Shown one piece after another: positions 21,366 through 43,147 of a stretch of DNA of 64,000 bases. The position numbers and the translations under genes were made by a program. Numbering within the stretch: position 1 is the stretch's first letter; each line of letters begins with the position of its first letter. Below the pieces are notes generated by a model. That model ran no database searches. It saw only the letters and a list, made by a program, of their open reading frames with translations, and was not told the DNA's origin. This stretch comes from an uncultured Spirochaetota bacterium (lineage in GTDB: Bacteria > Spirochaetota > Brevinematia > Brevinematales > JAOACQ01): assembly GCA_963768055.1 (NCBI GenBank), contig CAVYGN010000001.1:320001-384000 (forward strand), in the 5' to 3' direction.

Positions 21366-21685
21366 TTTATTATTTCCTTAATTAATTCCCGCCGGTGTCA
21401 CCTGCCTTTCTATAAAGAATTATAATACTGTAATATTCTTTTTTCAACAGATTCGAACTATTTTAACGGTGTAATAAGCGATGTAAGAATATATAATAGA
21501 GCGCTGTCGGCAAGTGAAGTAGGGGCATTGTATAACGAAAATAACCGTAAATAGGCGAATAAAAATGATGCCGACAGATCCTTCTTTGTAATGGGCGTTT
21601 TTTAAATTACTTTCTCTGCGGGCCCGGTTCAGAGCTTCATTATTCTGTACATAATATTGTACAGATAGATTTAATATCCGTCAAG

Positions 21686-23905: not shown

Positions 23906-23932
23906 CCCCGCCCCTATTTAAAAGAGGCGGGG
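23906..23932 (-). terminator. Rho-independent terminator-like hairpin
   Basis: CCCCGCC...GGCGGGG stem followed by a T-rich tract on the minus strand, after the 727-aa gene. Confidence 0.65.
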
Positions 23933-26152: not shown

Positions 26153-26812
26153 TTAATGTGCTGTCGCATTTCCGGTATTCAGGAGATATCTGCTGCCCTT
26201 TATCGAAAGCCAGATATCGTAATGTCCGAAGGAATTAATCATAATACCTGACCCTCCCGTGCCAGTTATCTGCGTGTCAATAATGGTCAAGCCGTCAGAC
26301 CCGTATCCGTTGATAATAAATATTACGTTATTGTCCGCATCATAATAATTCCATTTTACCGTAATATGCTGAGTGTCGTTAGTAAACACTGCGCTGTTTC
26401 CTAATGCTGTTAGTGTTACAGTAATGGATTGAGACTGCATAACAGGCGAAGCTATTGTCAGGAACTTTTTTTCAGTAGTGATGCCGTCATACGTATAAAA
26501 AAATATATACGGTAGTTCGTCTGAATTAGAAATCCAGGAAATGTTCGAGCTTCCGTTCGCCGCAGTCGGTGATAACTGATAATATAAATCTGTTGAAGTA
26601 GTTATAATATCGCAATTGATCGAACATATTTGATAATAAGGATCGGTTGTCGGGCCTGTCCAGGTTATTGCGTATACATTAGGTGATGTTGTATTCGTAT
26701 TTGTATTGTTCTGAGGGCCCGGATCGGTATTGAAAAGACCGCAGGATGTAATAGATATTGAAGAAAGAAAAAAATAAATAATTAAGAAATAGATTATTGT
26801 AATATTTCTCAT
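26153..26812 (-). CDS. Asn/Thr-rich lipoprotein
   Basis: Hydrophobic N-terminus with lipobox ITSC, then an NNTNTNTT linker. Confidence 0.75.
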   Translation of the reverse strand: MRNITIIYFLIIYFFLSSISITSCGLFNTDPGPQNNTNTNTTSPNVYAITWTGPTTDPYYQICSINCDIITTSTDLYYQLSPTAANGSSNISWISNSDELPYIFFYTYDGITTEKKFLTIASPVMQSQSITVTLTALGNSAVFTNDTQHITVKWNYYDADNNVIFIINGYGSDGLTIIDTQITGTGGSGIMINSFGHYDIWLSIKGSRYLLNTGNATAH

Positions 26813-26821: not shown

Positions 26822-27574
26822 TTAATCAAATTTTCCGAAGCTATAAAACAATTCAATCCATAATCCGTTTTCTGTATAAGGATCGATGGCTTTTTTGTCC
26901 GTACCGAATTTTGTATTCCATTTATTTTCAAAAACAGGCCAATCAAAAGATCTTTTATTTATGTAATAATCTATTTCAGTATAATTTTCAATACCGGTCA
27001 GGTTATAATAATAAATCTCAGGAGCAGGCAGATTAATAAATATTAATAAGGGATCGGAATCAGGAATGGGATTAAAAGGGTCTTCAGGCTCAGATATAAG
27101 ATATTGATCACCAAGTTTAGCGCCGCAGCATATACAATGGTTCATCCAATATGATTTTCCAGCCTCTTTTGAGCGGTCCTTGTAAAAATATGAAAAATAT
27201 TTTCTGATGATCAATACGATTGACGGATCTATTAACAATGTATGTGAAATCAGGGCATTTTTATGAATGTTAGAATTATTATAAGTATCAGAATCTTCAT
27301 TGTAAATTATTGATTTAGCATTATCCTTTATAACGAACATCAATACAGGGCTCGGATTATCACATTTCCAGCAAGATTCCCAACTCCAGGCAAGTGCTAG
27401 TTTTCTTGAAAAAAGGTATATTGAATCCAAATCATCTTTGCCGAGCCATTTTTGGAATTTTGCTCTGGAAAGGTTTTCGGTTATATACCATGTATTATTT
27501 GTCTTGTCCCATAAAGCACCTGATTTTTTTGCCACATCTTTCTCATCGAATGGTACAAATAATCTTGTATCCAT
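26822..27574 (-). CDS. DUF5710-like domain protein with a putative Zn-binding region
   Basis: N-terminal LFVPFDEKDVAKKSGALWD....WYI; CWKC and HCICCG. Confidence 0.75.
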   Translation of the reverse strand: MDTRLFVPFDEKDVAKKSGALWDKTNNTWYITENLSRAKFQKWLGKDDLDSIYLFSRKLALAWSWESCWKCDNPSPVLMFVIKDNAKSIIYNEDSDTYNNSNIHKNALISHTLLIDPSIVLIIRKYFSYFYKDRSKEAGKSYWMNHCICCGAKLGDQYLISEPEDPFNPIPDSDPLLIFINLPAPEIYYYNLTGIENYTEIDYYINKRSFDWPVFENKWNTKFGTDKKAIDPYTENGLWIELFYSFGKFD

Positions 27575-27607: not shown

Positions 27608-28084
27608 TTAAAATTCATATCCAACCCCGGCTGTACCATCTAAAAAGGAATAAGCGGCAACTTCAGTAGTCATATCCATGAAAAATACTGAAGCATAAAT
27701 AAACGGACCATCCAGCATGCTTTCTCCTATAAAATATTTAGGCATTAACCCTGCAGTAAAAAATGCATATTGTAGAGGACTTCCATCCACGCTTGCAAGC
27801 CCTCCACCTGCGCATAAGTCTAGCTTAAGTCGCCATCGTTCGGGGAGGATCCTTATGACGCTAATTGCAGCGAGTCTTTGAAAATTATCCTGATAATCAT
27901 ATTTTAAACCAATGAATATCGGATAACCGATACCATACAGCAATGTTCCGTCAATACAATACGAATATGTAAAATTTGTTGTCGTGATATCAAATTGCAG
28001 GGATGTCCCTAAACTTATTTCGATATTGCCGAAAATTTTTTCGCAAATACATGATAGAATTAATAATATCAGCAGAACCTTCAT
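27608..28084 (-). CDS. Small outer-membrane beta-barrel-like protein
   Basis: Signal peptide, amphipathic Gly/aromatic strands, C-terminal GVGYEF beta-signal. Confidence 0.65.
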   Translation of the reverse strand: MKVLLILLILSCICEKIFGNIEISLGTSLQFDITTTNFTYSYCIDGTLLYGIGYPIFIGLKYDYQDNFQRLAAISVIRILPERWRLKLDLCAGGGLASVDGSPLQYAFFTAGLMPKYFIGESMLDGPFIYASVFFMDMTTEVAAYSFLDGTAGVGYEF

Positions 28085-28103: not shown

Positions 28104-30566
28104 TCATTTTAAATCAAAATTGTTTGATCTTATATATTGTGCAATTGCATTTCCGGTTATTCTGCTTTTATTCGAATCGAACCCCGATTTTAAAAGTCCT
28201 GTTGAATCGAGCCCTGATCGGATCAGATCAAATGAGCTTACTTCAGAGTTGTAGCTTATTGCGTGCCATTCTCTTTTTGCTTGTTCTGTAATATTTTTTG
28301 ATCCATATATAGCCGAATCAACGGTTTTCATTATTTCCTTATCACTTGAAGACATGTTTATTCCTGATTTATTCCAATCAATATTCTTTACTACATTGAA
28401 TAATTCCCCTGACAACTTATCCAGGTTCTGAGAATACGAATAGTGATCCCCGGAAGAAAAACTTTCATTTAGTCCGGAATTTAACAATTTATTTTGAATG
28501 CTCAAACCGAAATTCGAGGTAAAACCATCTGTGTAATCCTGATATGGTTGATATTTTTGCGCAGCAAAATCGGTTATCAGACGCCGCCAGCCATCTAATT
28601 TTGTCATACCATTATCATTGAGCATTTTATCTACAGATCCTTCGCTAACCGTTTTTACAACATCGGTGTTGCCTCTGTAACCACTCAGCTCAGTTTGACC
28701 GTTCAAAATACCCCTGTTCAGAATTGAACCTTCTTGCATCAATCTCATGTATTCCGGCCTGTTTTCGATGCCTCGAAGATAATCAGCTGCTTGTATCCTT
28801 TCCGTATTATTATTTTTAATAATCCAGCGGCCTTTTTCATCCATCATGAAGCCGTTTGCTGATAATTCATCCTTTTCGGTTTTTTTCAAGCCTCTTTGAT
28901 CATGATTCAGCGCTGTTAAAAAATCATGTGCTTTGTTCATTGAGAAACCCATTAATGACATATCTCCAAAGTTCTTTGAAAATCCCGATTGCGTCATAGA
29001 GGCCAGAGTCCCATAAGCTCTGTTCCCGAAAGACATATTATCAGTCAACACAGACGCGGTGTTAGCGGTTACAGACCCTGTGGATTCCTGGAACAGCTGT
29101 TCCCCGATCACATTCAGAGTCCTTGAACCCAGGCCGAATAAAGCGGCCATTGCTCCGCCGTAAACTATCGTCGTAACCCAGGGCATTACATTGTAAGTAT
29201 TTAATATTCCCGCCTGGGCCCTCTGGCTGAGGCCCGCTGCCGCACCGGCGAGGTTCATTGCAAAAACACCGTCCGTATATACGTCAGACGCGCATTCCAG
29301 GAAGTAACTTAAAGGCCCCGCGAATGACAATACAAAAAACGACACGAAATAAGACTTTACCACTCCTAACATATTCGGGAAAAACGATGCTATGAATATT
29401 GCCGGGAATATGAATATGAATAATAAAATGACGACATTGATAATCCCGCCTACTATCAATTTTAAAGTCGCCGCTTTTACGGCTGCCCCGGTTGATGATT
29501 CGATACTTGATTCAGTAAAGTCGAACATGCTGCGTGCGCCGTACAATCCGGATATTTTGTCCGAGTTAAGGTTAAATACTGTGGAAGTAAGCATATCTTT
29601 AAATGAAGAAATCTGGTTTATATCCGAATTGCTGTAACTAATTGCCTCAGCGATAATGTTTTTGTAATCCTCAGTGGTTAAAAAGTCCGGGTAGCTTGTA
29701 GAAAGATTGGATATCTGGCTGTCATAATATGTTGAAAGGTCTGATTTTAATTGATTATAGAAAGCTCCCTTTGATAACCATGTATGTATTTTATTAAGCC
29801 TGATGTCGTCATTAAACTGTGATATGTTTATTACATAAGATTGCATCCCTCTTTTCGGGTCGTAATCCTGAACCAAAATGTTGCTTTCCTGGGAATGGTC
29901 AGTCAGGCCCGGAACTCCGTTGTCATTCAAATAGTACATTTCCTGCAGGGCTTTTGACATATCGTTGTTAGCCAGGAAGCTGATATCGTTATTTCCGAGA
30001 TTGGAATGGAGATCGGGGAGCGCTATGTTTTTTAAAAACGAGGTGTAGCGCAGGGCCAGGTCCCCGTTATGGATATTTCCGCTGAGCAAGTCGCTGTATT
30101 CATCTACTTTATCAAAGAACTTGCCTCTCGCTCCGTCGTCGCTCATATTCCTCGCTGTATAAAACACCTTATCGATCACTATTTTCATGTTATAATCAAG
30201 GTCGTAGATAACTTTTAACATAAGCGCAGGGGCGAAAGGCATATTTTTTACATATATAGATGAAGCACCTGCTTCGGTAGTCAGATCGATAGGATTATAT
30301 TTAATTATCTGCACGTTGACTGTTTTCGAGAATAATAATATATATAAACCGATTATAGCAGCATAATTTCCTACCTTTACACGCTTGAAATCGCCATAAT
30401 TAAGAAGTATTTCACCGAAAAAAAACACCATTGTTATAAGAACAAGAGTATCTGTCATGCCATTATTCGTAAGAGCGGTCATAATATTCGAAGCCGCCTG
30501 TAAAACCGTCTGGTAAGTAGACAGATCCCCGTTATTCATGAATATGGAAATATCTCCATTTCCCAT
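28104..30566 (-). CDS. traG: TraG-like (F-type, VirB6-related) membrane protein
   Basis: 820 aa; N-terminal TMs, soluble region, second TM cluster around aa 365-480, soluble tail; last gene of the tra cluster. Confidence 0.65.
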   Translation of the reverse strand: MGNGDISIFMNNGDLSTYQTVLQAASNIMTALTNNGMTDTLVLITMVFFFGEILLNYGDFKRVKVGNYAAIIGLYILLFSKTVNVQIIKYNPIDLTTEAGASSIYVKNMPFAPALMLKVIYDLDYNMKIVIDKVFYTARNMSDDGARGKFFDKVDEYSDLLSGNIHNGDLALRYTSFLKNIALPDLHSNLGNNDISFLANNDMSKALQEMYYLNDNGVPGLTDHSQESNILVQDYDPKRGMQSYVINISQFNDDIRLNKIHTWLSKGAFYNQLKSDLSTYYDSQISNLSTSYPDFLTTEDYKNIIAEAISYSNSDINQISSFKDMLTSTVFNLNSDKISGLYGARSMFDFTESSIESSTGAAVKAATLKLIVGGIINVVILLFIFIFPAIFIASFFPNMLGVVKSYFVSFFVLSFAGPLSYFLECASDVYTDGVFAMNLAGAAAGLSQRAQAGILNTYNVMPWVTTIVYGGAMAALFGLGSRTLNVIGEQLFQESTGSVTANTASVLTDNMSFGNRAYGTLASMTQSGFSKNFGDMSLMGFSMNKAHDFLTALNHDQRGLKKTEKDELSANGFMMDEKGRWIIKNNNTERIQAADYLRGIENRPEYMRLMQEGSILNRGILNGQTELSGYRGNTDVVKTVSEGSVDKMLNDNGMTKLDGWRRLITDFAAQKYQPYQDYTDGFTSNFGLSIQNKLLNSGLNESFSSGDHYSYSQNLDKLSGELFNVVKNIDWNKSGINMSSSDKEIMKTVDSAIYGSKNITEQAKREWHAISYNSEVSSFDLIRSGLDSTGLLKSGFDSNKSRITGNAIAQYIRSNNFDLK

Positions 30567-30576
30567 GTTAAGACCT

Positions 30577-31407
30577 TCACCTGGTAAAATTTACTTTTCT
30601 GAATGCCAATGATCCGGTTACATAGATCTTGTATAGTTTCATCAAGGAACTTTCTATCTTGTCAGCGTAATCTTTTCCCTCATAAAGATTGAGTACCGAT
30701 CCATCCTTTATGACAAATCCGACGCAAGCGGGCCATTTACCGATACCGAATTCCGAGGCTATCCTTCCATCATTGTCAATGATTATGTCAGATACCTTGT
30801 TTAATACCTCATCCCGGATGTCTGTCTTTTCCGAGAATGAAGGGACAATAACAAATATTTTGAATCCATTATAGGAAAAATAACCGATGAGTTCTTCCGC
30901 GAACCTGGATAATTCCGACCTTCCTGCCTCACTATAAGACAGGAAAAAACCGAGTCTTACATTCCTTTTTATTTCTTCCAGGTCTTTAAACCTCGCCGGA
31001 TCTATATACCCGGACTCTTCCTTAATTTTATTATAAGCTTCTTTAAGTGTTTCTTCCGCTGCAAGCCTTCTATGGGCTATTTCGGCGGTGTACAATAAAT
31101 AATTCTCGGCGTCTTCAATCGAGGTAGGATTTACGGCTAATGATTCTTTAAGGTTTTTGTAAGCATCCCTTAGTTCCATTGCTGACATGCTTTTAATCTT
31201 GTCAATAATCTTCGATCTTTCATTAGGCAGTTCGGTATTCGTTTTTTCTTCTATCAGGTCGACAGTTTTATTGGCCCCTGTAAGGTAGAATCCCATTCTC
31301 GGGTCTTTTTGATAAAAACCAGTCCCTGAATTAACTGTATAGAAACCTGCGTAAGAATACACTATGGATAATATAAATGGGGTGATGGTCATAATTATTC
31401 TTTTCAT
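30577..31407 (-). CDS. traF: TraF-like thioredoxin-fold protein
   Basis: Signal peptide, LAVNPTSIEDAENYL helix typical of TraF, ASEFGIGKWPA thioredoxin-like end; no CxxC. Confidence 0.6.
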   Translation of the reverse strand: MKRIIMTITPFILSIVYSYAGFYTVNSGTGFYQKDPRMGFYLTGANKTVDLIEEKTNTELPNERSKIIDKIKSMSAMELRDAYKNLKESLAVNPTSIEDAENYLLYTAEIAHRRLAAEETLKEAYNKIKEESGYIDPARFKDLEEIKRNVRLGFFLSYSEAGRSELSRFAEELIGYFSYNGFKIFVIVPSFSEKTDIRDEVLNKVSDIIIDNDGRIASEFGIGKWPACVGFVIKDGSVLNLYEGKDYADKIESSLMKLYKIYVTGSLAFRKVNFTR

Positions 31408-31424
31408 AAATATCCTCTCAAATT

Positions 31425-32597
31425 TTATTTTATAGGTATGACGTCAATATTAAAGTCATGCATGGCTGTTCTTAATTCCTTGCATACGTTTTCGGCAGTT
31501 GTTCTATCTCCCGTCTGTGTCAATATTTTTGAAACAAGGTCTATGGTCACTATAGTATTCATGATCACGTCATGATATACACCGTACATAAAATCCCGTG
31601 TTATTTCATCAAATTCTTTGCCATGTCCTGAATAGTTCTTTTTCCATTGTTCTATCCTGTCATCGATCCCGTAGCGGACTATTACGTCGGAATATGTATT
31701 GATAAAGTTCTTAACCGGGGTTTCCAGGGTCTTCCCAAGGGCTTTATCATAGCAATATTGCTGGAACATGCTTTTCGTATCGTACATTGAAGCAAGCAAA
31801 CCGCCTTTTGTTTTCACATTATAATTTCTATCCAATGTAACCTGGTAAATGGTTACAAGATTCGACACTATCATATATCTGAAACCTTGATATTCATTAT
31901 TAGGGTCCATGAATATATTTGTTGAATTGTTCGTTTTCATTAAATTTATTAAATTGATCGCGTCATCGGAATAGTTGTTTACTATCTTCCCTTTTATTGC
32001 ACTATTTACATTGGATTCCCAATTCTTGAGATTTTCTTCCGAGCTTGAATAGAATATGTTGCCCGTCCAATCAAAGTTTGTATTTGACGGGGTACTTCCG
32101 TTATCCATCATGTATTTTGCAAGCTCATACCTGTGGTTTTGTATAGTTGTGAACAGGTTATCGTACCCCTGAGCTAAATTCATGTATTGGTCGATTTGCT
32201 GTAATATTTCGTCGCAATGATAATATTCCATAACTACTGCCAGAAATGCGGATATTGCCATATCAACATTATCAGGCGAGAATAACCATGAAATATGGTC
32301 ATAAACTTTATAAAACATATCTCCGGAACTGTTTATTGTCAGGTCGCCCTGCCAGTCTATGCCGTATGGTCCGAATTGCGGTATAATGGATTCTGCGGGC
32401 GGCATTGTAAAAGGCTGCCCTATCTGCTGGTCTATCCTTTTTGAAAATTGTATTCCGCCGTTATTCGTGCTTATTGAATTTTTCCATTCATTAGCCCAAT
32501 TTTGCCATTCGCCTTCAAACATTGTAACTGCGTCATAAGCAAATGATAATTGTATCGATGAAATGTTTATAACCATCATTATATATAAAAATTTCAT
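31425..32597 (-). CDS. Divergent TraH-like exported protein
   Basis: Signal peptide; size and position; PQFGPYGIDWQG weakly resembles the TraH GCGGID motif. Confidence 0.45.
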   Translation of the reverse strand: MKFLYIMMVINISSIQLSFAYDAVTMFEGEWQNWANEWKNSISTNNGGIQFSKRIDQQIGQPFTMPPAESIIPQFGPYGIDWQGDLTINSSGDMFYKVYDHISWLFSPDNVDMAISAFLAVVMEYYHCDEILQQIDQYMNLAQGYDNLFTTIQNHRYELAKYMMDNGSTPSNTNFDWTGNIFYSSSEENLKNWESNVNSAIKGKIVNNYSDDAINLINLMKTNNSTNIFMDPNNEYQGFRYMIVSNLVTIYQVTLDRNYNVKTKGGLLASMYDTKSMFQQYCYDKALGKTLETPVKNFINTYSDVIVRYGIDDRIEQWKKNYSGHGKEFDEITRDFMYGVYHDVIMNTIVTIDLVSKILTQTGDRTTAENVCKELRTAMHDFNIDVIPIK

Positions 32598-32601
32598 ATT
32601 A

Positions 32602-35124
32602 TTATCTCCGTTCTTCTTTTTCCAGGGCTATTTTTTCTATTGCTTCCGACAGGCTAAGCCCGTCCTTTTCAAGTTCTTTCACCCGCATAACCTCTTTCGC
32701 TTCCGATCCGAAAAGAGCTTTTTCAAACGGAGAGGCAATATGCCTTAAAAGCGTATTCCCGTGAGGAGTCATAAGCATAAATTCCGAGTATGAGCCTTTC
32801 ACTCCGCCTATGCTTCTGAATAATTTTTCTGTAGCCTCATTGGACAAGTTCAGCTTGTGTTCGTTTTTAAGCCTGTCGATCGATGCGGGTTTCTGCTGGA
32901 ATACTACCTGGTAAGAAGCAGTGTCAGCGAGGACCTTTGAATGTTCATTGCAATGAACGTCTTCCAGGGATTGAGTTCCTATAACTATCGAAGCGTAGCA
33001 TTTCCGGTATTGTCTGAAATCCTTTGATATCATTGGAGAAAGGTAAGGGTTGTCCTTGACATTATGGTATTCGTCGTAAGCTATGAATTTTTTCCTGTTA
33101 TAATGCTTTTTCGAATATACGATACTTGATATCTTTGAAAAAATAACCATGTATTCAAAAGTCAGCAGGGTTTCACCTATTTCTTTAACTGGAGGGAGTG
33201 CTATTGCGGTAAGATTGTTATCAAGGGAAAACTGCTTTTTTGAGGGGTTGCAAAGAGCGCCATATATCCCTTTCATTGAATAATTGAATAGCCTGTCCGC
33301 AAGGTTCGGATGTTTTTCTTTCTTTAACTCCGACATTACTTTCTCAACTGTTCCTTCAGAGCCATATTTTTCTGCCACCATTCTTATCGAACTTGACAGA
33401 TATCCAATCAAATCCTCGCCAAGTTTCTCTTTCGGGCTGGCCATAAACTGGAATATGTTTGTGAAATTGAGAAGTTCCTCCGGGCTGATGAACTTTCCTT
33501 CAAGGTTTAAGAATGGGTTAAATGAAATATCGTTATCTTTGTTATTGAAATCCACATATCGGCCGCCAAGAAGCTTTGTCGAGTTCTCATATGAATGCCC
33601 TACCTCGGTAATAACAATTATTGCGTCTTCAGCCAGGTAATTAGCCGCTATGGTCTGGATCAAAAAGGATTTTCCTGTTCCTGGAGGGCCGAATATTAAC
33701 ATCGCGTAATCGGGCGAATCCTCATCGAATATATCGAATAAATATAATTGGGACCTGCGGGTTATGAAAAATAAAGACGGCTTATATGTATTTCCCTTGA
33801 TATCACCGTAATAGGGCGCGATCGATGCGCAATTCCAGGCTGAAAAATGACGCTTCCTATCAAAAAAATCAAGGTTTTGAATATTAAAATTAAGAGGAAG
33901 CGAGTTAAGAAATATCGGGCATTTTATTAATGTTTCCTTTTGTGAAAGGTAACCCGCTCCCTCTATCTGCGAAGTAAGCTTTCTTGAAGAGTCGTTAATA
34001 TCATAGTGTTTTGAATTATTCCTTACCGCCATAAATGAAAGATATCCCTCATGAATATGGTTTCCATCATTGATATCTTTCTCCATTTTTTCAAGTTCGT
34101 TAACCTTCTCCCTTGCGTTCTTGAGTCTTTTCATTACATTGTATGTCGCCTTCTTTTTTTGTATCGTTTCCTTTAATGTCTCCTGCGACAATACCCTGAG
34201 ATTAAAGCATGATACGGTATTGGCGGGAACCTGGTTCCTGTCGGAAATATGGCTCCCAAGAAGGTTCGACGTTCCATATGGATAGATCGAAGAAGGATAA
34301 TTTTTTATTGTTGTTACCGATATTTCCGTTCCATTTGTTTTGATATACTTAGGGTTACTTAAATCAATATACATTTCGGAATCGAGCAGCTGCTCGGCTA
34401 TGAATTCGTCAGGATTGATCTTTGAATATCCGTCCCGGCCGAATAATCTGTCGAAATACCATTTAAGGTTATCGGGTGTGAAATCCGTGCATGGCGTCCC
34501 GGCTTGGATAAATAGATTGGTACATTCTTTCAAAATCCTTAAAACTCTTATTCTTTCATAATTAAAATCATTCTCAATTTCGGACTTTTCTAAACGGCCT
34601 GCTATAGCATTAAATAAATTCTTAAATCCCTCAGGGCTTATAATGCTTTTAATATATGAAACCCCGGTTCGGAATGTGAATAAGACCCTGAAATCCTTCG
34701 GGGTGTAGGTATCCGGGAATCCTCCCCTATATCCCGAATCTTTTGCTTTAAATATAGAATGAGCATTATCCATACAGTATTTTTTTAAAAGTTCGAAATT
34801 CGTCTTTTTCTTTGATATATATGTGCTGAGGTAAGGATCTATGAAATCAGTAGCAAAATTTATTACCTGGATCGAATCGTTCTCTTTTAAAAGGTCGATA
34901 GAGAATATATCTTTCAAAGCTTTTAGCCCGGCCTCGTCAATTCCAAGAATAGGGTAAATTTCAAGTATAAATCCGATCGATCCGTCTTTCATGTGGTAGA
35001 TCCGGTCGGTTTCATCATAATACAAATAGTCGATGAATTCGGAAGTTTTAATCCTTCCTCCGCCGCATAACAGTTCCCATAATGTATAATCAGGTCCATT
35101 ATAATGGACCTTTGATTGATTCAT
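32602..35124 (-). CDS. traC: TraC/VirB4 ATPase
   Basis: 840 aa; Walker A GPPGTGKS, Walker B FIAYDEYH, R.YRK..ASIVIGTQS.ED, KGSYSEF. Confidence 0.92.
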   Translation of the reverse strand: MNQSKVHYNGPDYTLWELLCGGGRIKTSEFIDYLYYDETDRIYHMKDGSIGFILEIYPILGIDEAGLKALKDIFSIDLLKENDSIQVINFATDFIDPYLSTYISKKKTNFELLKKYCMDNAHSIFKAKDSGYRGGFPDTYTPKDFRVLFTFRTGVSYIKSIISPEGFKNLFNAIAGRLEKSEIENDFNYERIRVLRILKECTNLFIQAGTPCTDFTPDNLKWYFDRLFGRDGYSKINPDEFIAEQLLDSEMYIDLSNPKYIKTNGTEISVTTIKNYPSSIYPYGTSNLLGSHISDRNQVPANTVSCFNLRVLSQETLKETIQKKKATYNVMKRLKNAREKVNELEKMEKDINDGNHIHEGYLSFMAVRNNSKHYDINDSSRKLTSQIEGAGYLSQKETLIKCPIFLNSLPLNFNIQNLDFFDRKRHFSAWNCASIAPYYGDIKGNTYKPSLFFITRRSQLYLFDIFDEDSPDYAMLIFGPPGTGKSFLIQTIAANYLAEDAIIVITEVGHSYENSTKLLGGRYVDFNNKDNDISFNPFLNLEGKFISPEELLNFTNIFQFMASPKEKLGEDLIGYLSSSIRMVAEKYGSEGTVEKVMSELKKEKHPNLADRLFNYSMKGIYGALCNPSKKQFSLDNNLTAIALPPVKEIGETLLTFEYMVIFSKISSIVYSKKHYNRKKFIAYDEYHNVKDNPYLSPMISKDFRQYRKCYASIVIGTQSLEDVHCNEHSKVLADTASYQVVFQQKPASIDRLKNEHKLNLSNEATEKLFRSIGGVKGSYSEFMLMTPHGNTLLRHIASPFEKALFGSEAKEVMRVKELEKDGLSLSEAIEKIALEKEERR

Positions 35125-35128
35125 TTTT

Positions 35129-35479
35129 TTACTCCATCCAATCGGCCCGTTTTAATACCATCATAATATCTGTCCTGGGAACTCTTATAAGGTCGCCTTG
35201 TTTCTTAGGCATGATAACAATCCTTTTGATGATCTCATTTCTTCTCAGCGGAACTATAAGGGTATCGTCATACTGTATTGTATACCCCTGTCCTGCGGTA
35301 AAATATTGCTGGTTTTTATCGGTATTTTCATATTCCTTTCCAGTAAAAGGATCTCCGGAACGCAAATACACTCCATGATACAATGACATTGTATTGTACG
35401 ATGTCGGTATCCTATTCTGGGTCATTGAAATGCATGATGACAGCATTGCTGCAACCATCAGTAATAGAAAATATTTCAT
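35129..35479 (-). CDS. traV: TraV-like (VirB7) lipoprotein
   Basis: Lipobox LSSC; VPLRRNE.IKRIVIMP...GDL resembles the TraV C-terminus; lies between traB and traC. Confidence 0.65.
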   Translation of the reverse strand: MKYFLLLMVAAMLSSCISMTQNRIPTSYNTMSLYHGVYLRSGDPFTGKEYENTDKNQQYFTAGQGYTIQYDDTLIVPLRRNEIIKRIVIMPKKQGDLIRVPRTDIMMVLKRADWME

Positions 35480-35499
35480 ATTTACCTTCCTAAACCCAT

Positions 35500-36186
35500 T
35501 TATTTTTCAACAAAATCTTTTGTAAAGAACTCTACAGGCGAAAGCCATGTAACCTCAATTTGCTTCGAATTGATTACAACTAATTCGGGAAGCGTTTCCG
35601 CGGCCATCTTGAGATAAAATGATGATATTTGCGCGAAACTGCTTGAACCTGCCTCCTCAATGACTGTGCCGGCATTGTAATTAGTATTATTACCAGTCCC
35701 GCCGATAGTTAGATTCCCTTTTTGAAGCCATACGGCTAATGATTCCATCGCCGATGCTATGGCGGCCATGGCCACCTGTTCTTCTTCATGGCTTATTATC
35801 GCATCGGCCACAATACCCTCCATACCCTTATAACTAACGAATCCATTTATATCTATATAGCGGGGTGTATTGTTATAATCATAATAGGACATCCCAGTAC
35901 ATTTGATCATGATCTTGCGGCCTGTAAAATCCCCAACTGCCCACCCGGTTACTACTACTCCGTCGACATTAATTTTTCTTTTGTTGGGGGCCTCAGCATA
36001 ACCTTTTAATTGGATCAATATCGGACGAGTCCCTGACGGCGCCCCTTCCATCGGCGCTGTCGCTGATATGAGAAGTATTCCACTCGCTGTAGTTCCGGGG
36101 AGGATTGTAGTTTTGACAGCTTTTTCATCTGTGAATATATATTTGTTAATAAGCAGAAGGAGTATTAAGGGTATCGTTTTTTTCAT
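35500..36186 (-). CDS. traB: TraB/VirB10 C-terminal domain encoded as a separate exported protein
   Basis: PGT...G.LL, AVGDF..RK, I.GFV...GMEGI, hydrophobic antenna helices, FYLKMA.ETLP; own GGGAG RBS and signal-like N-terminus. Confidence 0.8.
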   Translation of the reverse strand: MKKTIPLILLLLINKYIFTDEKAVKTTILPGTTASGILLISATAPMEGAPSGTRPILIQLKGYAEAPNKRKINVDGVVVTGWAVGDFTGRKIMIKCTGMSYYDYNNTPRYIDINGFVSYKGMEGIVADAIISHEEEQVAMAAIASAMESLAVWLQKGNLTIGGTGNNTNYNAGTVIEEAGSSSFAQISSFYLKMAAETLPELVVINSKQIEVTWLSPVEFFTKDFVEK

Positions 36187-36544
36187 TTTTATTCTCCCGT
36201 TTATCTTTAATGATTGTTACTTTCGGCGGCAGTTTTTCAAGGGTTTGCAGCTGCCGGGATAATGTTTCATTAGTTTTTTCCTGGCATTCGATTTCACTCT
36301 GGAGGTTGGAATTATTTATTTCCATTCTCTTTTTTATATCGTTATGATAGGCGTTTTGTTCTTCGAGTAGCAGGTCCGTGTTATAATTCGAGAATTTTAT
36401 TGTATTTCCTGTTATATTTTCCTTGCGATGACTGCCCTTGACAATTCCCCATAATAATGCGATTATAAGAACTGTTGCAGAGAATATTACTTGTATTCGC
36501 TTTTGTGATAATGCATTATGCGGGGTTTTTGGTTTTTCAATCAT
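36146..36544 (-). CDS. TraB N-terminal-like protein (single TM plus coiled coil)
   Basis: Probable start MIEKPK; TM segment then coiled coil; lies between traK and the VirB10 domain. Confidence 0.6.
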   Translation of the reverse strand: MIEKPKTPHNALSQKRIQVIFSATVLIIALLWGIVKGSHRKENITGNTIKFSNYNTDLLLEEQNAYHNDIKKRMEINNSNLQSEIECQEKTNETLSRQLQTLEKLPPKVTIIKDKRENKNEKNDTLNTPSAY

Positions 36545-36563
36545 CTTCTTTACCCATTCTTTT

Positions 36564-37358
36564 TTATTTTTGATAAATAACAAAGAGGCCGGTCTTTCTT
36601 CCTGCAGGTATGAAATATGAATCGATAAAAAAGGCCTCTGACTCTGAATAGCCCTCAAGTCTTTCGACTGAAGTAATGAAAGGAATCAGGTCGTCGTCTT
36701 TTAATTCCATATCAGGTCCGTTATTTCTTATTTCGAATACCCTCCCCGAATAACCGGCTGTCGTCATATCAAGGCATTCTACTATATCCGCAGATTTGAT
36801 TTGTGATATCAGCTTTTCGACTTTTTCTGTAAGGAATCCGGCAATAAGGTTTTCTTTCCCTTCAAGTATTTGATAATACGCGTTATAAATTTCATGGAAC
36901 ATGGATATTTCCTGTTCGGACAGTAATATCAGATCTCCGTTTTCATAGGTTTCTACATATTCTCCTTTCGATGTTTCTTTTTGTAATGAGTTTTCTTTTG
37001 TTATCGTATCTTCTATATTGAAAGCAAAAGTCTTAACGTTTTTCGATGGAATTAACCGGATAGGATAGACGCTGCCGTCGGATAATATAACGGTAATAGG
37101 AGATTCCGCCTTTGCAGACACCTGGAGAAAGTTCTTGTCCTTGGCTGCCCTCATATCATTAGTCGATACACTTGTCCAGATCGTCCTGACAATCTCAGGA
37201 AACTGTATTGTTGTATTCTGGTTATAAGGTATTTCAAGGATAGTTTCTTTTGCCGCTTTAATTGATACAGTCTCCTGGGTTTCAAAGGATTTTCCATAGG
37301 ATAGGACTCTTATATTTATTAAAAATACTACTGATGTTAAAAAAAGAAACTTATTCAT
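36564..37358 (-). CDS. traK: TraK-like (VirB9) protein
   Basis: Signal peptide, Y...L.P motif, C-terminal GRVFEIRNNG...IPAGRKTGLFVI; synteny. Confidence 0.7.
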   Translation of the reverse strand: MNKFLFLTSVVFLINIRVLSYGKSFETQETVSIKAAKETILEIPYNQNTTIQFPEIVRTIWTSVSTNDMRAAKDKNFLQVSAKAESPITVILSDGSVYPIRLIPSKNVKTFAFNIEDTITKENSLQKETSKGEYVETYENGDLILLSEQEISMFHEIYNAYYQILEGKENLIAGFLTEKVEKLISQIKSADIVECLDMTTAGYSGRVFEIRNNGPDMELKDDDLIPFITSVERLEGYSESEAFFIDSYFIPAGRKTGLFVIYQK

Positions 37359-37368
37359 TTCCCCTCCA

Positions 37369-37935
37369 TTAACCCTTTTTAGATTCTTGTATATCAGTGC
37401 TGTCGATATAAATACCGCTTATTGTTCTTTTAAAATGGATGGATATTTTTGTTTCATACTGCGCCGCCAGATTGTCTCCCATGTATGAAACCCTTGTTCC
37501 GAAAAGTGTAACTGAATATTTTGAAGGATCGATTTCGGTATCACCCTTCAATTCGAATTCGCTTCGCATTGAATACTTTAAAATTTTTGTATCGTAAAAA
37601 TTCCTGTATTCTTTGTCGTAATCTGCAGTCCTTTCAGGGGTGATCATCGATTTTATCATATCGAAATGAGATAAATAATTCTTTTCATTATAATTTTGAG
37701 TCTGATAAGCATATATTGTTGCGTAATACCTCATTACTGTTACAGGCATGTCAATGTCCGACAATTCCAGTACCTTATTGCTGATCCCCGGGATAATAAT
37801 AGGTTGTTTTTTTATCGCGGATACAGTAAGAATTAAAATCACGAGAACAGCCATTACAATCCTGTCTTTTGTTATTTGCATCCGGTATTTTGTTATTTCG
37901 TCAACGAGTTTGACCGTAAGGTCATTTCCTGTCAT
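37369..37935 (-). CDS. traE: TraE-like (VirB8) protein
   Basis: 188 aa; N-terminal TM followed by IIIPG, NTF2-like pattern; synteny L-E-K-B. Confidence 0.7.
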   Translation of the reverse strand: MTGNDLTVKLVDEITKYRMQITKDRIVMAVLVILILTVSAIKKQPIIIPGISNKVLELSDIDMPVTVMRYYATIYAYQTQNYNEKNYLSHFDMIKSMITPERTADYDKEYRNFYDTKILKYSMRSEFELKGDTEIDPSKYSVTLFGTRVSYMGDNLAAQYETKISIHFKRTISGIYIDSTDIQESKKG

Positions 37936-37946
37936 TTTAATATCCT

Positions 37947-38249
37947 CTATTCAAAAAGAACGCTATTTATTTTTTCTCCGGGCGGTATAGTTTTCAGGGG
38001 ATTATAGTATCCATAATGATATAATAAATGAATGAAATACCCTTTCGGTTTGTTCATCCTGAAATGCCTGAATATCATAATTGCCGCTATTCCTATAAAA
38101 AAAGGAAGGATATTCATGAATATCCACCCGGCTATCCCGGAAACAAAAGCGATCGCAATATCGGGTATGATAAATCCGTACATTTCTTCCCGCCGGTATA
38201 ACATGCTTATGATTTTAAACCTTTCTTCATTCATAACATAATCATCCAT
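37947..38249 (-). CDS. traL: TraL (VirB3-like)
   Basis: About 100 aa, two TMs, KPKGYFIHLLYHYG motif; TAATG coupling with the pilin gene. Confidence 0.8.
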   Translation of the reverse strand: MDDYVMNEERFKIISMLYRREEMYGFIIPDIAIAFVSGIAGWIFMNILPFFIGIAAIMIFRHFRMNKPKGYFIHLLYHYGYYNPLKTIPPGEKINSVLFE

Positions 38250-38548
38250 TACGATAATAACGCTACAGCCAGGAATGCGCAGATTGCCGTAACGCCTATT
38301 CTTATCCATGAAACCTGGCCGGTCGCTCCCTTCGAAAGCAGCAAAATGATGAACATTATTATAGCTATCACTCCAAGTATACCGCCGATGATAGTTTTAG
38401 CGCTATTGAGAAAAGTCTGGATAGACTGCAAGAAACTCAGGCTCTGGCTGGATAGGTCGCCGTTCGAGGAAGTCTGTGAGAACACATTCCCGTATAATGC
38501 TGCCAATAAGATGGAGGCGGCAGGTTTTCGCATTTTTTTTAAATTCAT
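38249..38548 (-). CDS. Pilin (TraA/VirB2-like)
   Basis: 99 aa; leader peptide plus two hydrophobic helices; immediately upstream of traL. Confidence 0.7.
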   Translation of the reverse strand: MNLKKMRKPAASILLAALYGNVFSQTSSNGDLSSQSLSFLQSIQTFLNSAKTIIGGILGVIAIIMFIILLLSKGATGQVSWIRIGVTAICAFLAVALLS

Positions 38549-38555
38549 ATAATCC

Positions 38556-38990
38556 TCACTTTAGAAAATAAAATTCTATATCGCTGCCGGGGCTCTCCCT
38601 GAATTCGAGGGCTGCCGGTTTCTCCATGTTCGACAGGACGCTTTCTATAAGCGTCTTGTTCGAATAACTGCATATTGCGACGGTTCTTTTTAGGGGGAAG
38701 TAATCGCCGATCTTATCGATGCAATACCTGACGGTCCATTGGCTTATCTCCTTTTCTTTTATGAGGAGAGGGGCGGAAGCGGTTTCAAGGGTTTCTTCAT
38801 GATTGTCATCGTTTCTCAGGATGGCATAGCAGTTTTGGGGTAGTATGTACAAGGAGCCGTCTTTTCTGGCTTCTTCTTTTTTTATCATGACGATATCGCC
38901 GCTTAATTTGCCTTTTTTGGTATAATCCGGAAGTTCCGTGCAGGAACAGGCAAGGGCCGCAATGAATAATATTGCAATCGGTTTTAACAT
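38556..38990 (-). CDS. Lipoprotein, first gene of the T4SS operon
   Basis: Lipobox ALAC/CSC; GAGG RBS. Confidence 0.7.
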   Translation of the reverse strand: MLKPIAILFIAALACSCTELPDYTKKGKLSGDIVMIKKEEARKDGSLYILPQNCYAILRNDDNHEETLETASAPLLIKEKEISQWTVRYCIDKIGDYFPLKRTVAICSYSNKTLIESVLSNMEKPAALEFRESPGSDIEFYFLK

Positions 38991-39078
38991 TTTCAGCCTC
39001 TATAATCAATAATAAATTGGTACTACCTATTAAAAAGTATCCGTGCCTTTTTTAAAAAATTCATATAAACGAGTAACG

Positions 39079-39107
39079 ATTATAAAACAATTTAATAATG
39101 ATGTCAA
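39079..39107 (-). promoter_or_regulatory. Sigma70 promoter of the T4SS operon
   Basis: Exact TTGACA-N17-TATAAT on the minus strand (tgtcaa 39102-39107, attata 39079-39084). Confidence 0.8.
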
Positions 39108-41221: not shown

Positions 41222-41250
41222 CCGGACTAAATAAATTCGGAATTATATAC

Positions 41251-41279
41251 TTGACAAACCAAAGAAAATGAGTTATACT
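41251..41279 (+). promoter_or_regulatory. Transposase promoter overlapping the left TIR
   Basis: TTGACA-N17-TATACT. Confidence 0.7.
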
Positions 41280-41292
41280 ATTCTTGAAATAA

Positions 41293-42261
41293 ATGAATAG
41301 GAGAAAAAATATGAAATTTAATCTTCCTGAATATAAGAATATGAGCGAAATGGCTTATATTGATGTCTGCCGATTATCGGAAGATGAAGCGAGAACAATT
41401 TTAGAAAATATTCGCTGGAAGGATGGTATAATATGTCCTCATTGTGAAAGTAAAAATATTGTTAGAATCATCGGAAAAGCAAAAACCATAAGAGATGGTC
41501 TTATACGCTGTAAGGATTGCAGAAAGCAATTTACAGTTACATCCGGGACAATAATGCATGGGTCACATATTACATTAAGGCAATGGGTACAGGCTTATTA
41601 TTCAATGTGTTCTCATAAAAAGGGTGTTTCGTCTCTCCAGTTACAAAGAAACCTCGGATTACATACTTATAAATCCGCATGGCATTTATCCCATAGGATT
41701 AGGATGACGATGAAAAAGGAGCCTTTAGCAAATATGCTCAATGGACAAGTTGAAGTCGATGAAACCTATGTTGGCGGGAAGCCGAGAAAGGGAAATAACA
41801 GCAACAGCAAAAGAGGGCGAGGAACTGAAAAAGTCCCTGTAATGGTATTGGTTGAAAGAAACGGTAAAGCCGTATCTCATCCTGTTCCCGATGTAACCGG
41901 GGAAACATTAAAGTCAGCCATTAAAGAAGTAGTTAATAAAGAATCAACAATTATTACTGACGAATGGAGAAGTTATAACGGGATTGAAAAAGAGTATAAA
42001 GGCGGCCATAAAGTAATTAATCACGGGATAGGCCAGTATTCAGAGAATGGGATCAATACAAATACCGCCGAATCATATTTTTCACTCTTAAAGAGGGGAA
42101 TCGTAGGAACCTTCCATCATATTTCTAAAAAACATCTTTTCAGGTATTGTGCGGAATTTAATTTCAGATGGAATAACAGGAAAAAAAGCGATGGAGAAAG
42201 AACAGAAAACGCTATTAGGGGGATAGTCGGAAAAAGATTAAAATATAAGGGGGCTTTTTAA
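41293..42261 (+). CDS. IS1595-family (ISXO2-like) transposase
   Basis: Zn ribbon CPHC/CKDC, VEVDETYVGGK, TDEW..Y, NTAESYFSLLKRG..GTFHH.S.KHL..Y..EF.FR.N. Confidence 0.96.
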   Translation: MNRRKNMKFNLPEYKNMSEMAYIDVCRLSEDEARTILENIRWKDGIICPHCESKNIVRIIGKAKTIRDGLIRCKDCRKQFTVTSGTIMHGSHITLRQWVQAYYSMCSHKKGVSSLQLQRNLGLHTYKSAWHLSHRIRMTMKKEPLANMLNGQVEVDETYVGGKPRKGNNSNSKRGRGTEKVPVMVLVERNGKAVSHPVPDVTGETLKSAIKEVVNKESTIITDEWRSYNGIEKEYKGGHKVINHGIGQYSENGINTNTAESYFSLLKRGIVGTFHHISKKHLFRYCAEFNFRWNNRKKSDGERTENAIRGIVGKRLKYKGAF

Positions 42262-42911: not shown

Positions 42912-43063
42912 TTATCTGATGTACTATTATTAGAGTTATTATTATTTTCTTGTGTAGTAGTTTCTGTTTGAGGGGTATCAAACAATGTGCTTATATCCTC
43001 ACCTTCAAGAGGTTCGTGATGACCGACTAATGATTTCCATACAACATTATTGGGGTTTGGCAT
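42908..43063 (-). CDS. 51-aa acidic Asn/Thr-rich peptide (not in the ORF track)
   Basis: MPNPNNVVWKSLVGHHEPLEGEDISTLFDTPQTETTTQENNNNSNNSTSDN; AAGGAG RBS and a consensus promoter upstream. Confidence 0.65.
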   Translation of the reverse strand: MPNPNNVVWKSLVGHHEPLEGEDISTLFDTPQTETTTQENNNNSNNSTSDN

Positions 43064-43124: not shown

Positions 43125-43147
43125 GTATATAAAAATGGGGTTATGAA

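What the first reader, a model, noticed from the sequence alone, without database searches (positions are those of the whole stretch)
28104..39107. Reduced F-type type IV secretion operon with no DNA-transfer genes, behind a perfect consensus promoter
Seen: a tightly coupled minus-strand run of lipoprotein, pilin, traL, traE, traK, split traB, traV, traC, traH-like, traF-like and traG-like, preceded by an exact TTGACA-17-TATAAT. No internal stops are visible and the VirB4 Walker motifs are intact. Known: F-type conjugation also needs TraD (coupling protein), a relaxase and TraW/TraU/TrbC/TraN. None of these, nor an integrase, tRNA or att repeat, is recognisable here, although both flanks are in view. 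Inference: a domesticated non-conjugative T4SS or pilus used for protein export, adhesion, contact killing or DNA uptake, rather than a decaying ICE.
Basis: partly seen in the sequence, partly recalled or inferred. Interest (0 to 1): 0.88.

Follow-up and report, generated by a model that had tools for sequence, protein, structure and literature searches.

The report
Stripped-down F-like secretion machine operon
This is an intact, evolutionarily conserved operon for a pared-down relative of the F-plasmid mating machine that lacks the known DNA-transfer parts, so it probably builds a pilus or exports surface proteins rather than conjugating.

Summary
The gene run and the exact TTGACA-17-TATAAT promoter are real. 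Family or profile evidence supports TraL, TraE, TraK, the TraB/VirB10 C-domain, TraC/VirB4 and TraG_N. The TraF call is weak, TraH rests only on a language-model lead, and TraV is positional.

The unit is longer than reported. Sixteen tightly packed genes run from the promoter (39107) to a strong hairpin terminator (23906), followed by a syntenic C11 protease gene.

The whole module, promoter included, recurs in one other genome, a MAG labelled Brevinematales (L001). Synonymous sites there are saturated and pN is 0.12-0.41, so this is not a decaying ICE.

No T4CP, relaxase, integrase, tRNA, TraW, TraU, TrbC or TraN was found in the 64 kb.

- One operon gene (DUF5710 plus zinc ribbon) belongs to a family found on 693 plasmid records, 594 of them typed conjugative.
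- The island has lower GC than its flanks and sits next to an IS and defence genes.
- The rest of the genome could not be searched.

Verdict: a new variant of the known MOB-less T4SS kind, function untested.

The parts
39079..39107 (-). Sigma-70 consensus promoter TTGACA-17-TATAAT
   Evidence: Read directly and scored 12/12. It is one of 3 perfect matches in the window. The -35, spacer length, -10 and the following CGT.ACTCGTT are conserved in L001.
38556..38990 (-). 144-aa lipoprotein, first gene, no known family
   Evidence: Lipobox-like ALAC at residue 15. No Pfam or NCBIfam hit. 54% identical to the L001 homologue.
38249..38548 (-). 99-aa VirB2/TraA-like pilin candidate
   Evidence: Leader plus two hydrophobic helices at 53-71 and 79-97. 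Weak Pfam hits to T4SS_pilin (E=0.016) and TrbC/VirB2 (E=0.087). It sits before traL, as in F-type loci. pN/pS is about 0.19.
37947..38234 (-). TraL (VirB3-like), 95 aa from the start shared with L001 (the ORF extends to 38309)
   Evidence: Pfam TraL E=2.3e-4, 21.8 bits, below the 24.4 cut-off. TIGR02762 E=1.5e-4. hhalign 2.6e-7. hmmsearch 1.9e-6.
37369..37935 (-). TraE (VirB8-like), bitopic
   Evidence: Pfam TraE 25.9 bits against a 24.8 cut-off. hhalign 1.6e-3. TM helix at 26-44.
36564..37358 (-). TraK (VirB9-like) candidate
   Evidence: hhalign against F-type TraK E=3.9e-4 over 199 columns. N-terminal match to the Bacteroides conjugative-transposon TraN model, 8.5e-5 and far below its cut-off. 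No Pfam hit. No PDB sequence hit.
36146..36544 (-). Bitopic coiled-coil membrane protein in the position of the TraB/VirB10 N-terminal part (the ORF from TTG reaches 36658)
   Evidence: TM helix. No family match. The assignment is by position only. Conserved in L001 at 61%.
35500..36186 (-). Stand-alone TraB/VirB10 C-terminal domain with its own start codon and hydrophobic N-terminus
   Evidence: Pfam TrbI 9.6e-9, 35.8 bits against a 35 cut-off. NF010289 F-type TraB residues 231-386. hhalign 4.5e-12. PDB TraB 7spb/7okn residues 217-387, E=6.5e-6. GGGAG-N8-ATG and the 41-nt overlap are conserved in L001, and the A7 run is not.
35129..35479 (-). 116-aa lipoprotein in the TraV (VirB7) position
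   Evidence: Lipobox LSSC. Sits between traB and traC as in reference loci. hhalign against TraV gives only E=0.024.
32602..35124 (-). TraC (VirB4 ATPase), F-type
   Evidence: PF11130 TraC_F_IV 8.4e-34. TIGR02746 1.4e-112, 377 bits against a 567 cut-off. 22-25% identical over 92-95% of its length to plasmid TraC proteins. Walker A and B motifs are invariant in 6 of 6 relatives.
31425..32597 (-). 390-aa secreted protein, possible TraH analogue
   Evidence: ESM Atlas: 22 of 30 hits are TraH clusters, score 0.91. Nothing came from Pfam, hhalign (E=0.32), the fold search or tblastn. The family has only 8 members among 1.84 billion representatives.
30577..31407 (-). 276-aa TraF-like candidate (thioredoxin-like, no CXXC)
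   Evidence: hhalign of a 5-sequence profile against TraF gives E=0.024 over 175 collinear columns. There are also local hits to TraW (0.019) and TrbC (0.051). No Pfam hit, no PDB hit and no tblastn hit.
28104..30566 (-). 820-aa TraG_N / VirB6-like polytopic protein
   Evidence: ESM Atlas: 30 of 30 hits are TraG_N, score 0.95. hhalign against TraG E=4.5e-6, residues 30-142 aligned to 25-133. At least 4 TM helices. No Pfam hit.
27608..28084 (-). 158-aa secreted protein, possibly a small outer-membrane barrel (inferred)
   Evidence: Signal sequence and C-terminal ...GVGYEF. No family. 72% identical in L001.
26822..27574 (-). 250-aa cytoplasmic DUF5710 plus Cys-rich (zinc-ribbon-like) protein of a plasmid-borne family
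   Evidence: PF18974 5.7e-15. The CxxC...HCxCC residues are invariant in 6 of 6 relatives. tblastn hits 693 plasmid records, 594 of them typed conjugative. There is a full-length hit on a Vibrio MPF_F/MOBF plasmid, and a homologue lies inside an IncI2 T4SS cluster.
26153..26812 (-). 219-aa lipoprotein, fast-evolving
   Evidence: Lipobox ITSC. 47-49% identical in L001. No family.
23946..26129 (-). 727-aa Asn/Ser/Thr-rich lipoprotein, the fastest-evolving gene and last gene of the operon
   Evidence: Lipobox SSSC. 37-41% identical in L001. No family.
23906..23932 (-). Intrinsic-terminator-like hairpin
   Evidence: 10-bp stem with 8 GC pairs, followed by a T-rich tail, 14 nt after the stop codon. 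A GC-rich hairpin lies at the equivalent intergenic position in L001, though there its T-tract was scored on the opposite strand.
21686..23866 (-). 726-aa lipoprotein-like C11 (clostripain-family) peptidase with a PPC domain, syntenic but beyond the terminator
   Evidence: PF03415 1.5e-12 and PPC 0.0063. 49% identical to the gene in the same position in L001.

Best explanation
This is a selectively maintained, island-borne, minimal F-lineage type IV secretion or pilus system with no coupling protein and no relaxase.

A consensus sigma-70 promoter drives one transcript of about 15.2 kb and 16 genes. The genes encode:
- a VirB2-like pilin;
- an inner-membrane platform: TraL (VirB3), TraE (VirB8), TraG_N (VirB6) and the sole ATPase TraC (VirB4);
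- an outer-membrane core: TraK (VirB9), a two-gene TraB (VirB10) and a TraV-position lipoprotein;
- one or two periplasmic assembly factors (TraF-like, possibly TraH-like);
- a small outer-membrane-barrel-like protein, a plasmid-type DUF5710/zinc-ribbon protein and surface-type lipoproteins.

Shown: gene content, integrity, conservation, purifying selection and absence of T4CP and relaxase in 64 kb.

Inferred: TraC alone powers pilin extraction and polymerisation, as in F-pilus assembly. With no cytoplasmic substrate receptor, the output is a pilus or pseudopilus used for contact or adhesion. It may also move Sec-exported, co-encoded lipoproteins (the 219-aa and 727-aa proteins and the C11 protease) from the periplasm to the surface in two steps, as Ptl does.
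For: - Core components were identified by family or profile searches and Atlas leads.
- All 16 genes plus the C11 gene are collinear with L001 at 37-81% amino-acid identity.
- pS is 0.53-0.83 (saturated) against pN 0.12-0.41.
- The promoter is conserved base for base in its hexamers and spacing.
- Gene spacing is tight and a single strong terminator follows the last gene.
- No T4CP, relaxase, integrase or tRNA was found in the window, nor in the 5 kb upstream of L001.
- Where F-type loci carry traD and the relaxase after traG, this operon carries other genes.
- Five of the accessory products have lipoboxes and three of them are the fastest-evolving genes, as expected for surface-exposed proteins.
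- T4CP-less T4SSs that make adhesive pili, export periplasmic cargo or take up DNA are established precedents (PMC12857230, section 20 read in full).
Against: - Only 64 kb of a contig listed as 1.8 Mb was visible. A T4CP far from virB4 is 'not uncommon' (passage in PMC12102498).
- The DUF5710 gene belongs to a family that lies mostly on conjugative plasmids, which could mean DNA is still handled.
- The TraH, TraF, TraV and pilin assignments are weak.
- No pilin-maturation genes (signal peptidase, TraQ/TraX) and no lytic transglycosylase were recognised.
- The split VirB10 might impair envelope-spanning signalling.
- There are no expression or structural data.
- Only one relative locus could be inspected.
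Confidence: 0.55

Rival explanations
1. It is the mating-pair-formation module of a still-conjugative or mobilising element. Its coupling protein and relaxase lie elsewhere in the genome, or are too divergent to recognise.
For: - T4CP genes are often distant from virB4 (passage in PMC12102498).
- The module has island features: low GC, different flanks in the two genomes, and adjacent IS and defence genes.
- The DUF5710 family is mostly on conjugative plasmids, and on an IncI2 plasmid it lies inside the T4SS cluster.
Against: - In the two reference loci that show them, traD follows traG (L002) or sits beside the relaxase about 2 kb upstream of traL (L004). Neither is present in 64 kb here or in the 22 kb seen in L001.
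- The mating-pair-stabilisation and pilus genes TraN, TraU, TraW and TrbC are also missing.
- No integrase, att repeat or tRNA was found.
Confidence: 0.2
2. It is a DNA-uptake (ComB-like) or DNA-release (GGI-like) machine. The pseudopilus binds DNA, and the cytoplasmic DUF5710/zinc-ribbon protein acts on the DNA.
For: - The component set matches ComB's as the review describes it: VirB2-4 and VirB6-10, with no VirD4, VirB5 or VirB11 (PMC12857230 section 20).
- The N-terminal DUF5710 module is shared with IncP TraC primase and ArdC-like zincin proteins.
Against: - No ComEC, ComH or nuclease partner lies in the operon.
- DNA binding by DUF5710 is not established. The AF2 model failed at pLDDT 35 and there was no PDB hit.
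- GGI-type release uses a relaxase and TraD (recalled, not from a call).
Confidence: 0.1
3. It is a decaying remnant of an ICE or integrated plasmid with no present function.
For: Many canonical F-type genes are missing. The location is island-like and next to an IS.
Against: All 17 genes are intact in two genomes whose synonymous sites are saturated, and pN is well below pS. The promoter and the SD-ATG of the split traB are conserved.
Confidence: 0.05

Closest known systems
F-type (MPF_F) conjugative T4SS of F, pED208 and related plasmids
   Same: - Gene order pilin-traL-traE-traK-traB-traV-traC, then traF/traH/traG at the end.
- TraC carries the F-specific N-domain PF11130.
- The TraB C-domain matches solved F and pED208 TraB.
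- No VirB11 or VirB5 was recognised in the family scans.
   Different: - No TraD, relaxase, TraW, TraU, TrbC, TraN, TrbI, signal peptidase or transglycosylase.
- TraB is split into two genes.
- The order after traC is H-like, F-like, then G.
- TraC is only 22-25% identical and falls below the TIGR02746 cut-off.
- There are extra lipoprotein, barrel and DUF5710 genes.
MOB-less MPF_F T4SSs in non-proteobacterial diderms (one Aquificae, one Protochlamydia; Guglielmini et al. 2013, PMC3548315, passages seen)
   Same: An F-class VirB4 locus without a relaxase, in a diderm outside Proteobacteria, proposed as an exaptation.
   Different: I did not inspect the gene content of those systems. This one also lacks a T4CP and four F-specific periplasmic or outer-membrane proteins. 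It forms a tiny family of its own.
T4CP-less VirB-type systems: Bordetella Ptl, Brucella VirB, Bartonella Trw, Helicobacter ComB (PMC12857230 section 20, read in full)
   Same: VirB4 is the only or main ATPase and there is no substrate receptor. The functions are two-step export of periplasmic cargo, adhesive variable pili, or DNA uptake. Candidate cargo genes lie adjacent to the machine, as in Ptl.
   Different: Those are all VirB/P-type systems. This one is of F lineage. That section names no F-type T4CP-less system.
Patescibacteria T4SS (PMC12102498, abstract and passages seen)
   Same: A lineage-specific T4SS, mostly without a relaxase, interpreted as co-opted for a function other than conjugation.
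   Different: That system is of the monoderm MPF_FATA type. T4CP homologues are common in those genomes.

Membership tests
MPF_F (F-type T4SS) | VirB4 of the TraC type with the F-specific N-terminal domain | tested here: met
   PF11130 scores 117.6 bits against a 28.1 cut-off. The best NCBIfam model is TIGR02746 TraC-F-type at 377 bits, below its 567 equivalog cut-off. Other scores: VirB4_CagE 119, the MPF_G-type traC_PFL_4706 95, TrbE 47 or less.
MPF_F (F-type T4SS) | Core TraL, TraE, TraK, TraB and TraV in F order | tested here: met
   hhalign gives TraL 2.6e-7, TraE 1.6e-3, TraK 3.9e-4 and TraB-C 4.5e-12. TraV gives only 0.024 and is otherwise supported by position and a lipobox. TraE and TrbI pass their Pfam cut-offs.
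MPF_F (F-type T4SS) | TraG_N (VirB6-like) protein | tested here: met
   hhalign 4.5e-6. Atlas: 30 of 30 hits are TraG_N. Pfam hmmscan gave no hit.
MPF_F (F-type T4SS) | TraF and TraH periplasmic assembly proteins | tested here: inconclusive
   - TraF: hhalign E=0.024 over 175 columns.
- TraH: only the Atlas lead, 22 of 30 hits.
- TraH negative results: hhalign E=0.32; Pfam 0 of 7 members; HMMER against 1.84 billion representatives found only 8 proteins, all of its own family; no fold-search hit.
MPF_F (F-type T4SS) | TraW, TraU, TrbC and TraN | tested here: not met
   At E<=1 among 946 six-frame ORFs there were 0 hits for TraN. The best hits for TraW, TraU and TrbC were E=0.21-0.41. None of the operon proteins without an assigned name matched TraW, TraU, TrbC or TraN better than E=0.018 in hhalign; w276 gave only short local hits. 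No Pfam hit.
Conjugative element (ICE or plasmid) | Relaxase plus type IV coupling protein | tested here: not met
   None of 65 window ORFs and none of 9 L001 flank ORFs gave a Pfam hit. The TraD HMM gave 0 hits. phmmer with 2 relaxases and a T4CP fragment gave a best E of 0.1. This covers only the 64-kb window and the 22-kb locus.
ICE | Integrase, att repeats or a tRNA target | tested here: not met
   0 tRNA genes. No integrase. No flanking direct repeat beyond chance-like matches of 30 nt or less. The only recombinase is an IS1595 transposase.
T4CP-less T4SS (Ptl, Trw, ComB kind) | No VirD4/TraD anywhere in the genome | not testable with these tools
   Only the window was available.

The most novel reading that the evidence does not exclude
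This is the first F-lineage T4SS that has permanently lost the coupling protein, relaxase and TraW/U/N/TrbC, and has split VirB10 into two polypeptides. It would be a lineage-specific machine, probably of Brevinematales spirochaetes, powered by VirB4 alone. It would build a pilus and/or place its own co-encoded, rapidly evolving lipoproteins and a C11 protease on the cell surface. That would be a new functional class of T4SS in a phylum where none has been described.
Probability: 0.25. Interest if true: 0.75.

Novelty: new variant of a known kind. Interest (0 to 1): 0.52.

Why it matters
MOB-less T4SSs of free-living bacteria are common but almost unstudied. The T4CP-less systems reviewed so far are all of VirB type.

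A conserved, strongly promoted F-like machine reduced to pilin, VirB3/4/6/7/8/9/10 and one or two helpers would define the minimal set needed for F-type pilus or channel assembly. It would also offer a natural test of whether VirB10 must be a single envelope-spanning chain.

It could reveal a new route for surface display of lipoproteins in a spirochaete-like diderm. The embedded DUF5710 protein links this system to an uncharacterised gene family that lies mostly on conjugative plasmids.

Tried and rejected
- AlphaFold2 of the DUF5710 protein from a 6-sequence alignment gave pLDDT 35.5 and was unusable.
- AlphaFold2 of the 390-aa protein from 7 sequences gave pLDDT 57, with only residues 210-390 confident. 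Its Foldseek PDB search gave 0 matches at E<=0.001.
- PDB sequence searches for the DUF5710 protein, the 276-aa protein and the TraK profile gave nothing meaningful.
- Pfam at E<=10 gave nothing for the 390-, 276-, 820-, 158-, 219-, 727-, 144- and 116-aa proteins.
- tblastn of the 390- and 276-aa proteins against plasmids gave only chance-level hits, 1 and 2 records at E of 2-7.
- Rfam gave 0 families in the window.
- The repeat search found no att-like direct repeats.
- PADLOC gave nothing for the operon's accessory genes.
- I considered Fic as a T4SS effector and set it aside. It matches SoFic/PDC-S04 defence-candidate models (2.4e-39) and has its own promoter.
- I considered a programmed frameshift joining the two traB ORFs and set it aside. 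The A7 run is not conserved in L001, whereas GGGAG-N8-ATG is.
- Complex prediction for TraK, TraB-C and the TraV candidate was unavailable.
- My first hhalign batch timed out and was rerun in parts.
- Literature searches: 'Brevinema' plus 'type IV secretion' returned 0 papers. A spirochaete phylum-wide genomics preprint contains no occurrence of T4SS or 'conjug'. 'Spirochaet' plus VirB4 plus TraC returned 13 papers; none of the 11 listed titles concerns a spirochaete T4SS, and I saw the listing only.

Full report
**1. Observation**

The minus strand carries an uninterrupted run of ORFs from 38990 down to 28104 and beyond. Gaps are 4-33 nt or short overlaps.

The sequence at 39107..39079 reads TTGACA, a 17-nt spacer, then TATAAT and scores 12/12. 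It is one of 3 perfect matches in the window. There are 8 matches with at most one mismatch, against 0.51 expected from shuffles. Consensus promoters are therefore a habit of this genome and not special to this operon.

ARAGORN finds 0 tRNA genes and Rfam finds 0 families.

**2. Extent of the unit**

Four further co-oriented genes follow: 27608-28084, 26822-27574, 26153-26812 and 23946-26129. The only strong minus-strand terminator lies at 23932..23906, with a 10-bp stem and 8 GC pairs, 14 nt after the last stop codon.

The inferred transcript is about 15.2 kb and holds 16 genes. A C11 peptidase gene (21686-23866) comes next.

**3. A second copy**

A genome scan with a TraC alignment returned one locus, L001. 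It comes from a MAG titled uncultured Brevinematales.

- Every gene from the first lipoprotein to the 727-aa lipoprotein is present there in the same order, at 37-81% amino-acid identity.
- The C11 peptidase follows there too, at 49%.
- L001 has two extra ORFs between traE and traK.
- Its upstream flank holds an MjaI-type endonuclease, a methylase-nuclease fusion and metabolic genes. None has a counterpart in the window.
- The promoter hexamers, the 17-nt spacing and about 12 nt downstream are conserved.
- A GC-rich hairpin sits at the equivalent intergenic site, although its T-tract was scored on the other strand.

Nei-Gojobori counts over 17 gene pairs give pS 0.53-0.83, which is saturated, and pN 0.12-0.41. 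All ORFs are intact in both genomes. This rules out recent decay.

The host label is tentative. A 74%-identical DUF5710 homologue on a contig of nearly the same length is named Smithella sp. by another source. I had no search left to place the window's housekeeping genes.

**4. What the genes are**

Well supported:
- TraE: Pfam 25.9 bits against a 24.8 cut-off.
- TraB C-domain: TrbI 35.8 bits against a 35 cut-off. It matches solved TraB 7spb/7okn residues 217-387 at 6.5e-6, and hhalign gives 4.5e-12.
- TraC: PF11130 8.4e-34 and TIGR02746 1.4e-112, below its equivalog cut-off. It is 22-25% identical over 92-95% of its length to plasmid TraC proteins.
- TraL: hhalign 2.6e-7; Pfam is just under its cut-off.
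- TraK: hhalign 3.9e-4 over 199 columns.
- TraG: hhalign 4.5e-6 and 30 of 30 Atlas hits to TraG_N.

The hhalign references were alignments I built from five annotated F-type plasmid loci. The E-values are per comparison, with 15 references tested per query.

Weak:
- Pilin: T4SS_pilin E=0.016, with two TM helices.
- TraF-like: E=0.024, but 175 collinear columns cover the thioredoxin-like core, which lacks the CXXC motif.
- TraV: lipobox and position only.

TraH-like rests on the Atlas lead alone, with 22 of 30 hits at score 0.91 and a low recognition value. An exhaustive HMMER search found only 8 proteins, all of its own family. None of the 7 I scanned carries a TraH domain. The profile comparison with TraH gave E=0.32. 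The partly confident model has no PDB neighbour.

**5. The split traB**

The VirB10 C-domain is a separate 228-aa ORF. It overlaps the preceding 132-170-aa bitopic coiled-coil ORF by 41 nt.

The GGGAG-N8-ATG and the overlap are conserved in L001. The A7 run is not. These are therefore two genes, not a frameshift or an error.

That the upstream ORF is the VirB10 N-part is inferred from position only.

**6. What is missing**

Pfam scans of 65 window ORFs and 9 L001 flank ORFs show no T4CP, relaxase or integrase.

HMMs from the reference loci were run against 946 six-frame ORFs:
- 0 hits at E<=1 for TraD, TraN, TraH and TrbI-F.
- Nothing better than E=0.21 for TraW, TraU and TrbC.
- Two relaxases, two integrases and a T4CP fragment gave a best E of 0.1.

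Where a reference F locus has traD and mobF after traG, this operon has a barrel-like protein, the DUF5710 protein and two lipoproteins.

**7. The DUF5710 gene**

The 250-aa cytoplasmic protein has an N-terminal DUF5710 domain (5.7e-15). It also has invariant CxxC...HCxCC residues. It is conserved at 62-78% in 5 relatives, including the 2.74-Mb contig that also carries the TraC and TraF-like relatives.

tblastn finds 693 plasmid records. Of these, 594 are typed conjugative, 52 mobilizable and 47 non-mobilizable. Thirty-one cover at least 80% of the query. Contexts seen:
- A full-length homologue lies on a Vibrio MPF_F/MOBF plasmid among maintenance genes.
- On an IncI2 plasmid the homologue lies inside the T4SS cluster.
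- On Clostridium perfringens plasmids it lies in an accessory region.
- The first 45 residues or so also occur in ArdC-like zincin proteins and in IncP TraC primase.

This is a footprint of conjugative-element ancestry and possibly of DNA handling. Its fold could not be obtained.

**8. Context**

- GC is 0.34-0.40 from 26 to 44 kb, against 0.42-0.51 in the flanks. The same contrast holds in L001.
- Upstream lies an IS1595 element bounded by 33-nt inverted repeats.
- Downstream lies a Fic protein that matches SoFic/PDC-S04 models.

The module therefore looks like an acquired island in a variable region, maintained by selection.

**9. Mechanism and comparison**

The set equals pilin plus VirB3, 4, 6, 7, 8, 9 and 10, plus one or two F-type helpers. 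That is the composition the 2025 review gives for ComB, and it resembles Ptl and Trw in lacking VirD4 (PMC12857230 section 20, read in full).

Guglielmini et al. reported MOB-less MPF_F loci in one Aquificae and one Protochlamydia, and predicted new exaptations among such systems (PMC3548315, passages). Their 2014 paper lists 12 MPF_F profiles and notes that TraW, TraU, TraF and TrbC are mutually homologous (PMC4027160, passages). That fits the diffuse weak hits of the 276-aa protein.

I rank the explanations as follows:
- A VirB4-only pilus or two-step surface-export machine: 0.55.
- A module whose T4CP and relaxase lie elsewhere: 0.2.
- DNA uptake or release: 0.1.
- A dead remnant: 0.05.
- The remainder is unassigned.

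**10. Novelty**

This is a new variant of a known kind. The kind, a MOB-less and T4CP-less T4SS, is established. The new features are the F lineage combined with loss of TraD and TraW/U/N/TrbC, the split VirB10, the embedded DUF5710 gene, and the very narrow distribution. TraC has 5 relatives at 40% identity or more, and the 390-aa family has 8 members.

I found no paper on a T4SS in Brevinema or Brevinematales. Supplementary tables were not available.

Noticed in passing
window 41229-43293: An IS1595-family element. 33-nt imperfect inverted repeats (82% complementary) bracket a transposase (41293-42261) and a DUF6338 passenger gene (42261-42911). A one-mismatch consensus promoter lies at 41251-41279.
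   Followed up: partly
window 20619-21365 (-): A Fic-domain protein matching SoFic/PDC-S04 candidate anti-phage defence models (2.4e-39). It has its own 11/12 promoter at 21447..21419. It is more likely a defence or toxin module than a T4SS effector.
   Followed up: partly
window 52676-53854 (+): An AAA_14/DUF4143 ATPase matching the PADLOC candidate system PDC-S01 (2.8e-89).
   Followed up: no
window 58924-61277 (-): A TonB-dependent receptor appears split into two overlapping ORFs: CarboxypepD_reg plus Plug at 60510-61277, and the barrel at 58924-60582. This could be a frameshift or pseudogene.
   Followed up: no
L001 6825-7728 (+): Two extra ORFs (175 and 138 aa, no family) lie between traE and traK in the relative and are absent from the window.
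   Followed up: partly
L001 2962-5024 (-): Directly upstream of the relative's T4SS promoter lies a restriction-modification pair: an MjaI-type endonuclease, and an N6/N4 methylase fused to a staphylococcal-nuclease domain.
   Followed up: no
window 17386-17414 (+) and 56424-56452 (-): Two further perfect TTGACA-17-TATAAT promoters, upstream of an APH-family kinase gene and of an unknown 179-aa ORF.
   Followed up: no
window 19157-20512 (+); L008 9100-10591: An NfeD/SPFH gene pair lies just beyond the Fic gene. The same kind of pair lies a few kb from the DUF5710 gene on an IncI2 plasmid. The NfeD proteins are 26% identical (E=0.005), so this is probably coincidence.
   Followed up: partly
window 27306..27278 (-): An 11/12 promoter-like site lies inside the DUF5710 coding region, about 465 nt upstream of the 219-aa lipoprotein gene. 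It may be an internal promoter.
   Followed up: no
P0013 versus L001: Taxonomic labels conflict. A DUF5710 homologue on a 117,942-nt contig is named Smithella sp. The near-equal-length L001 contig (117,793 nt) is titled Brevinematales. The host assignment is therefore tentative.
   Followed up: no
window 14483-15628 (-): An unusual fusion of an ABC-transporter ATPase domain with a C-terminal AraC-type HTH domain.
   Followed up: no
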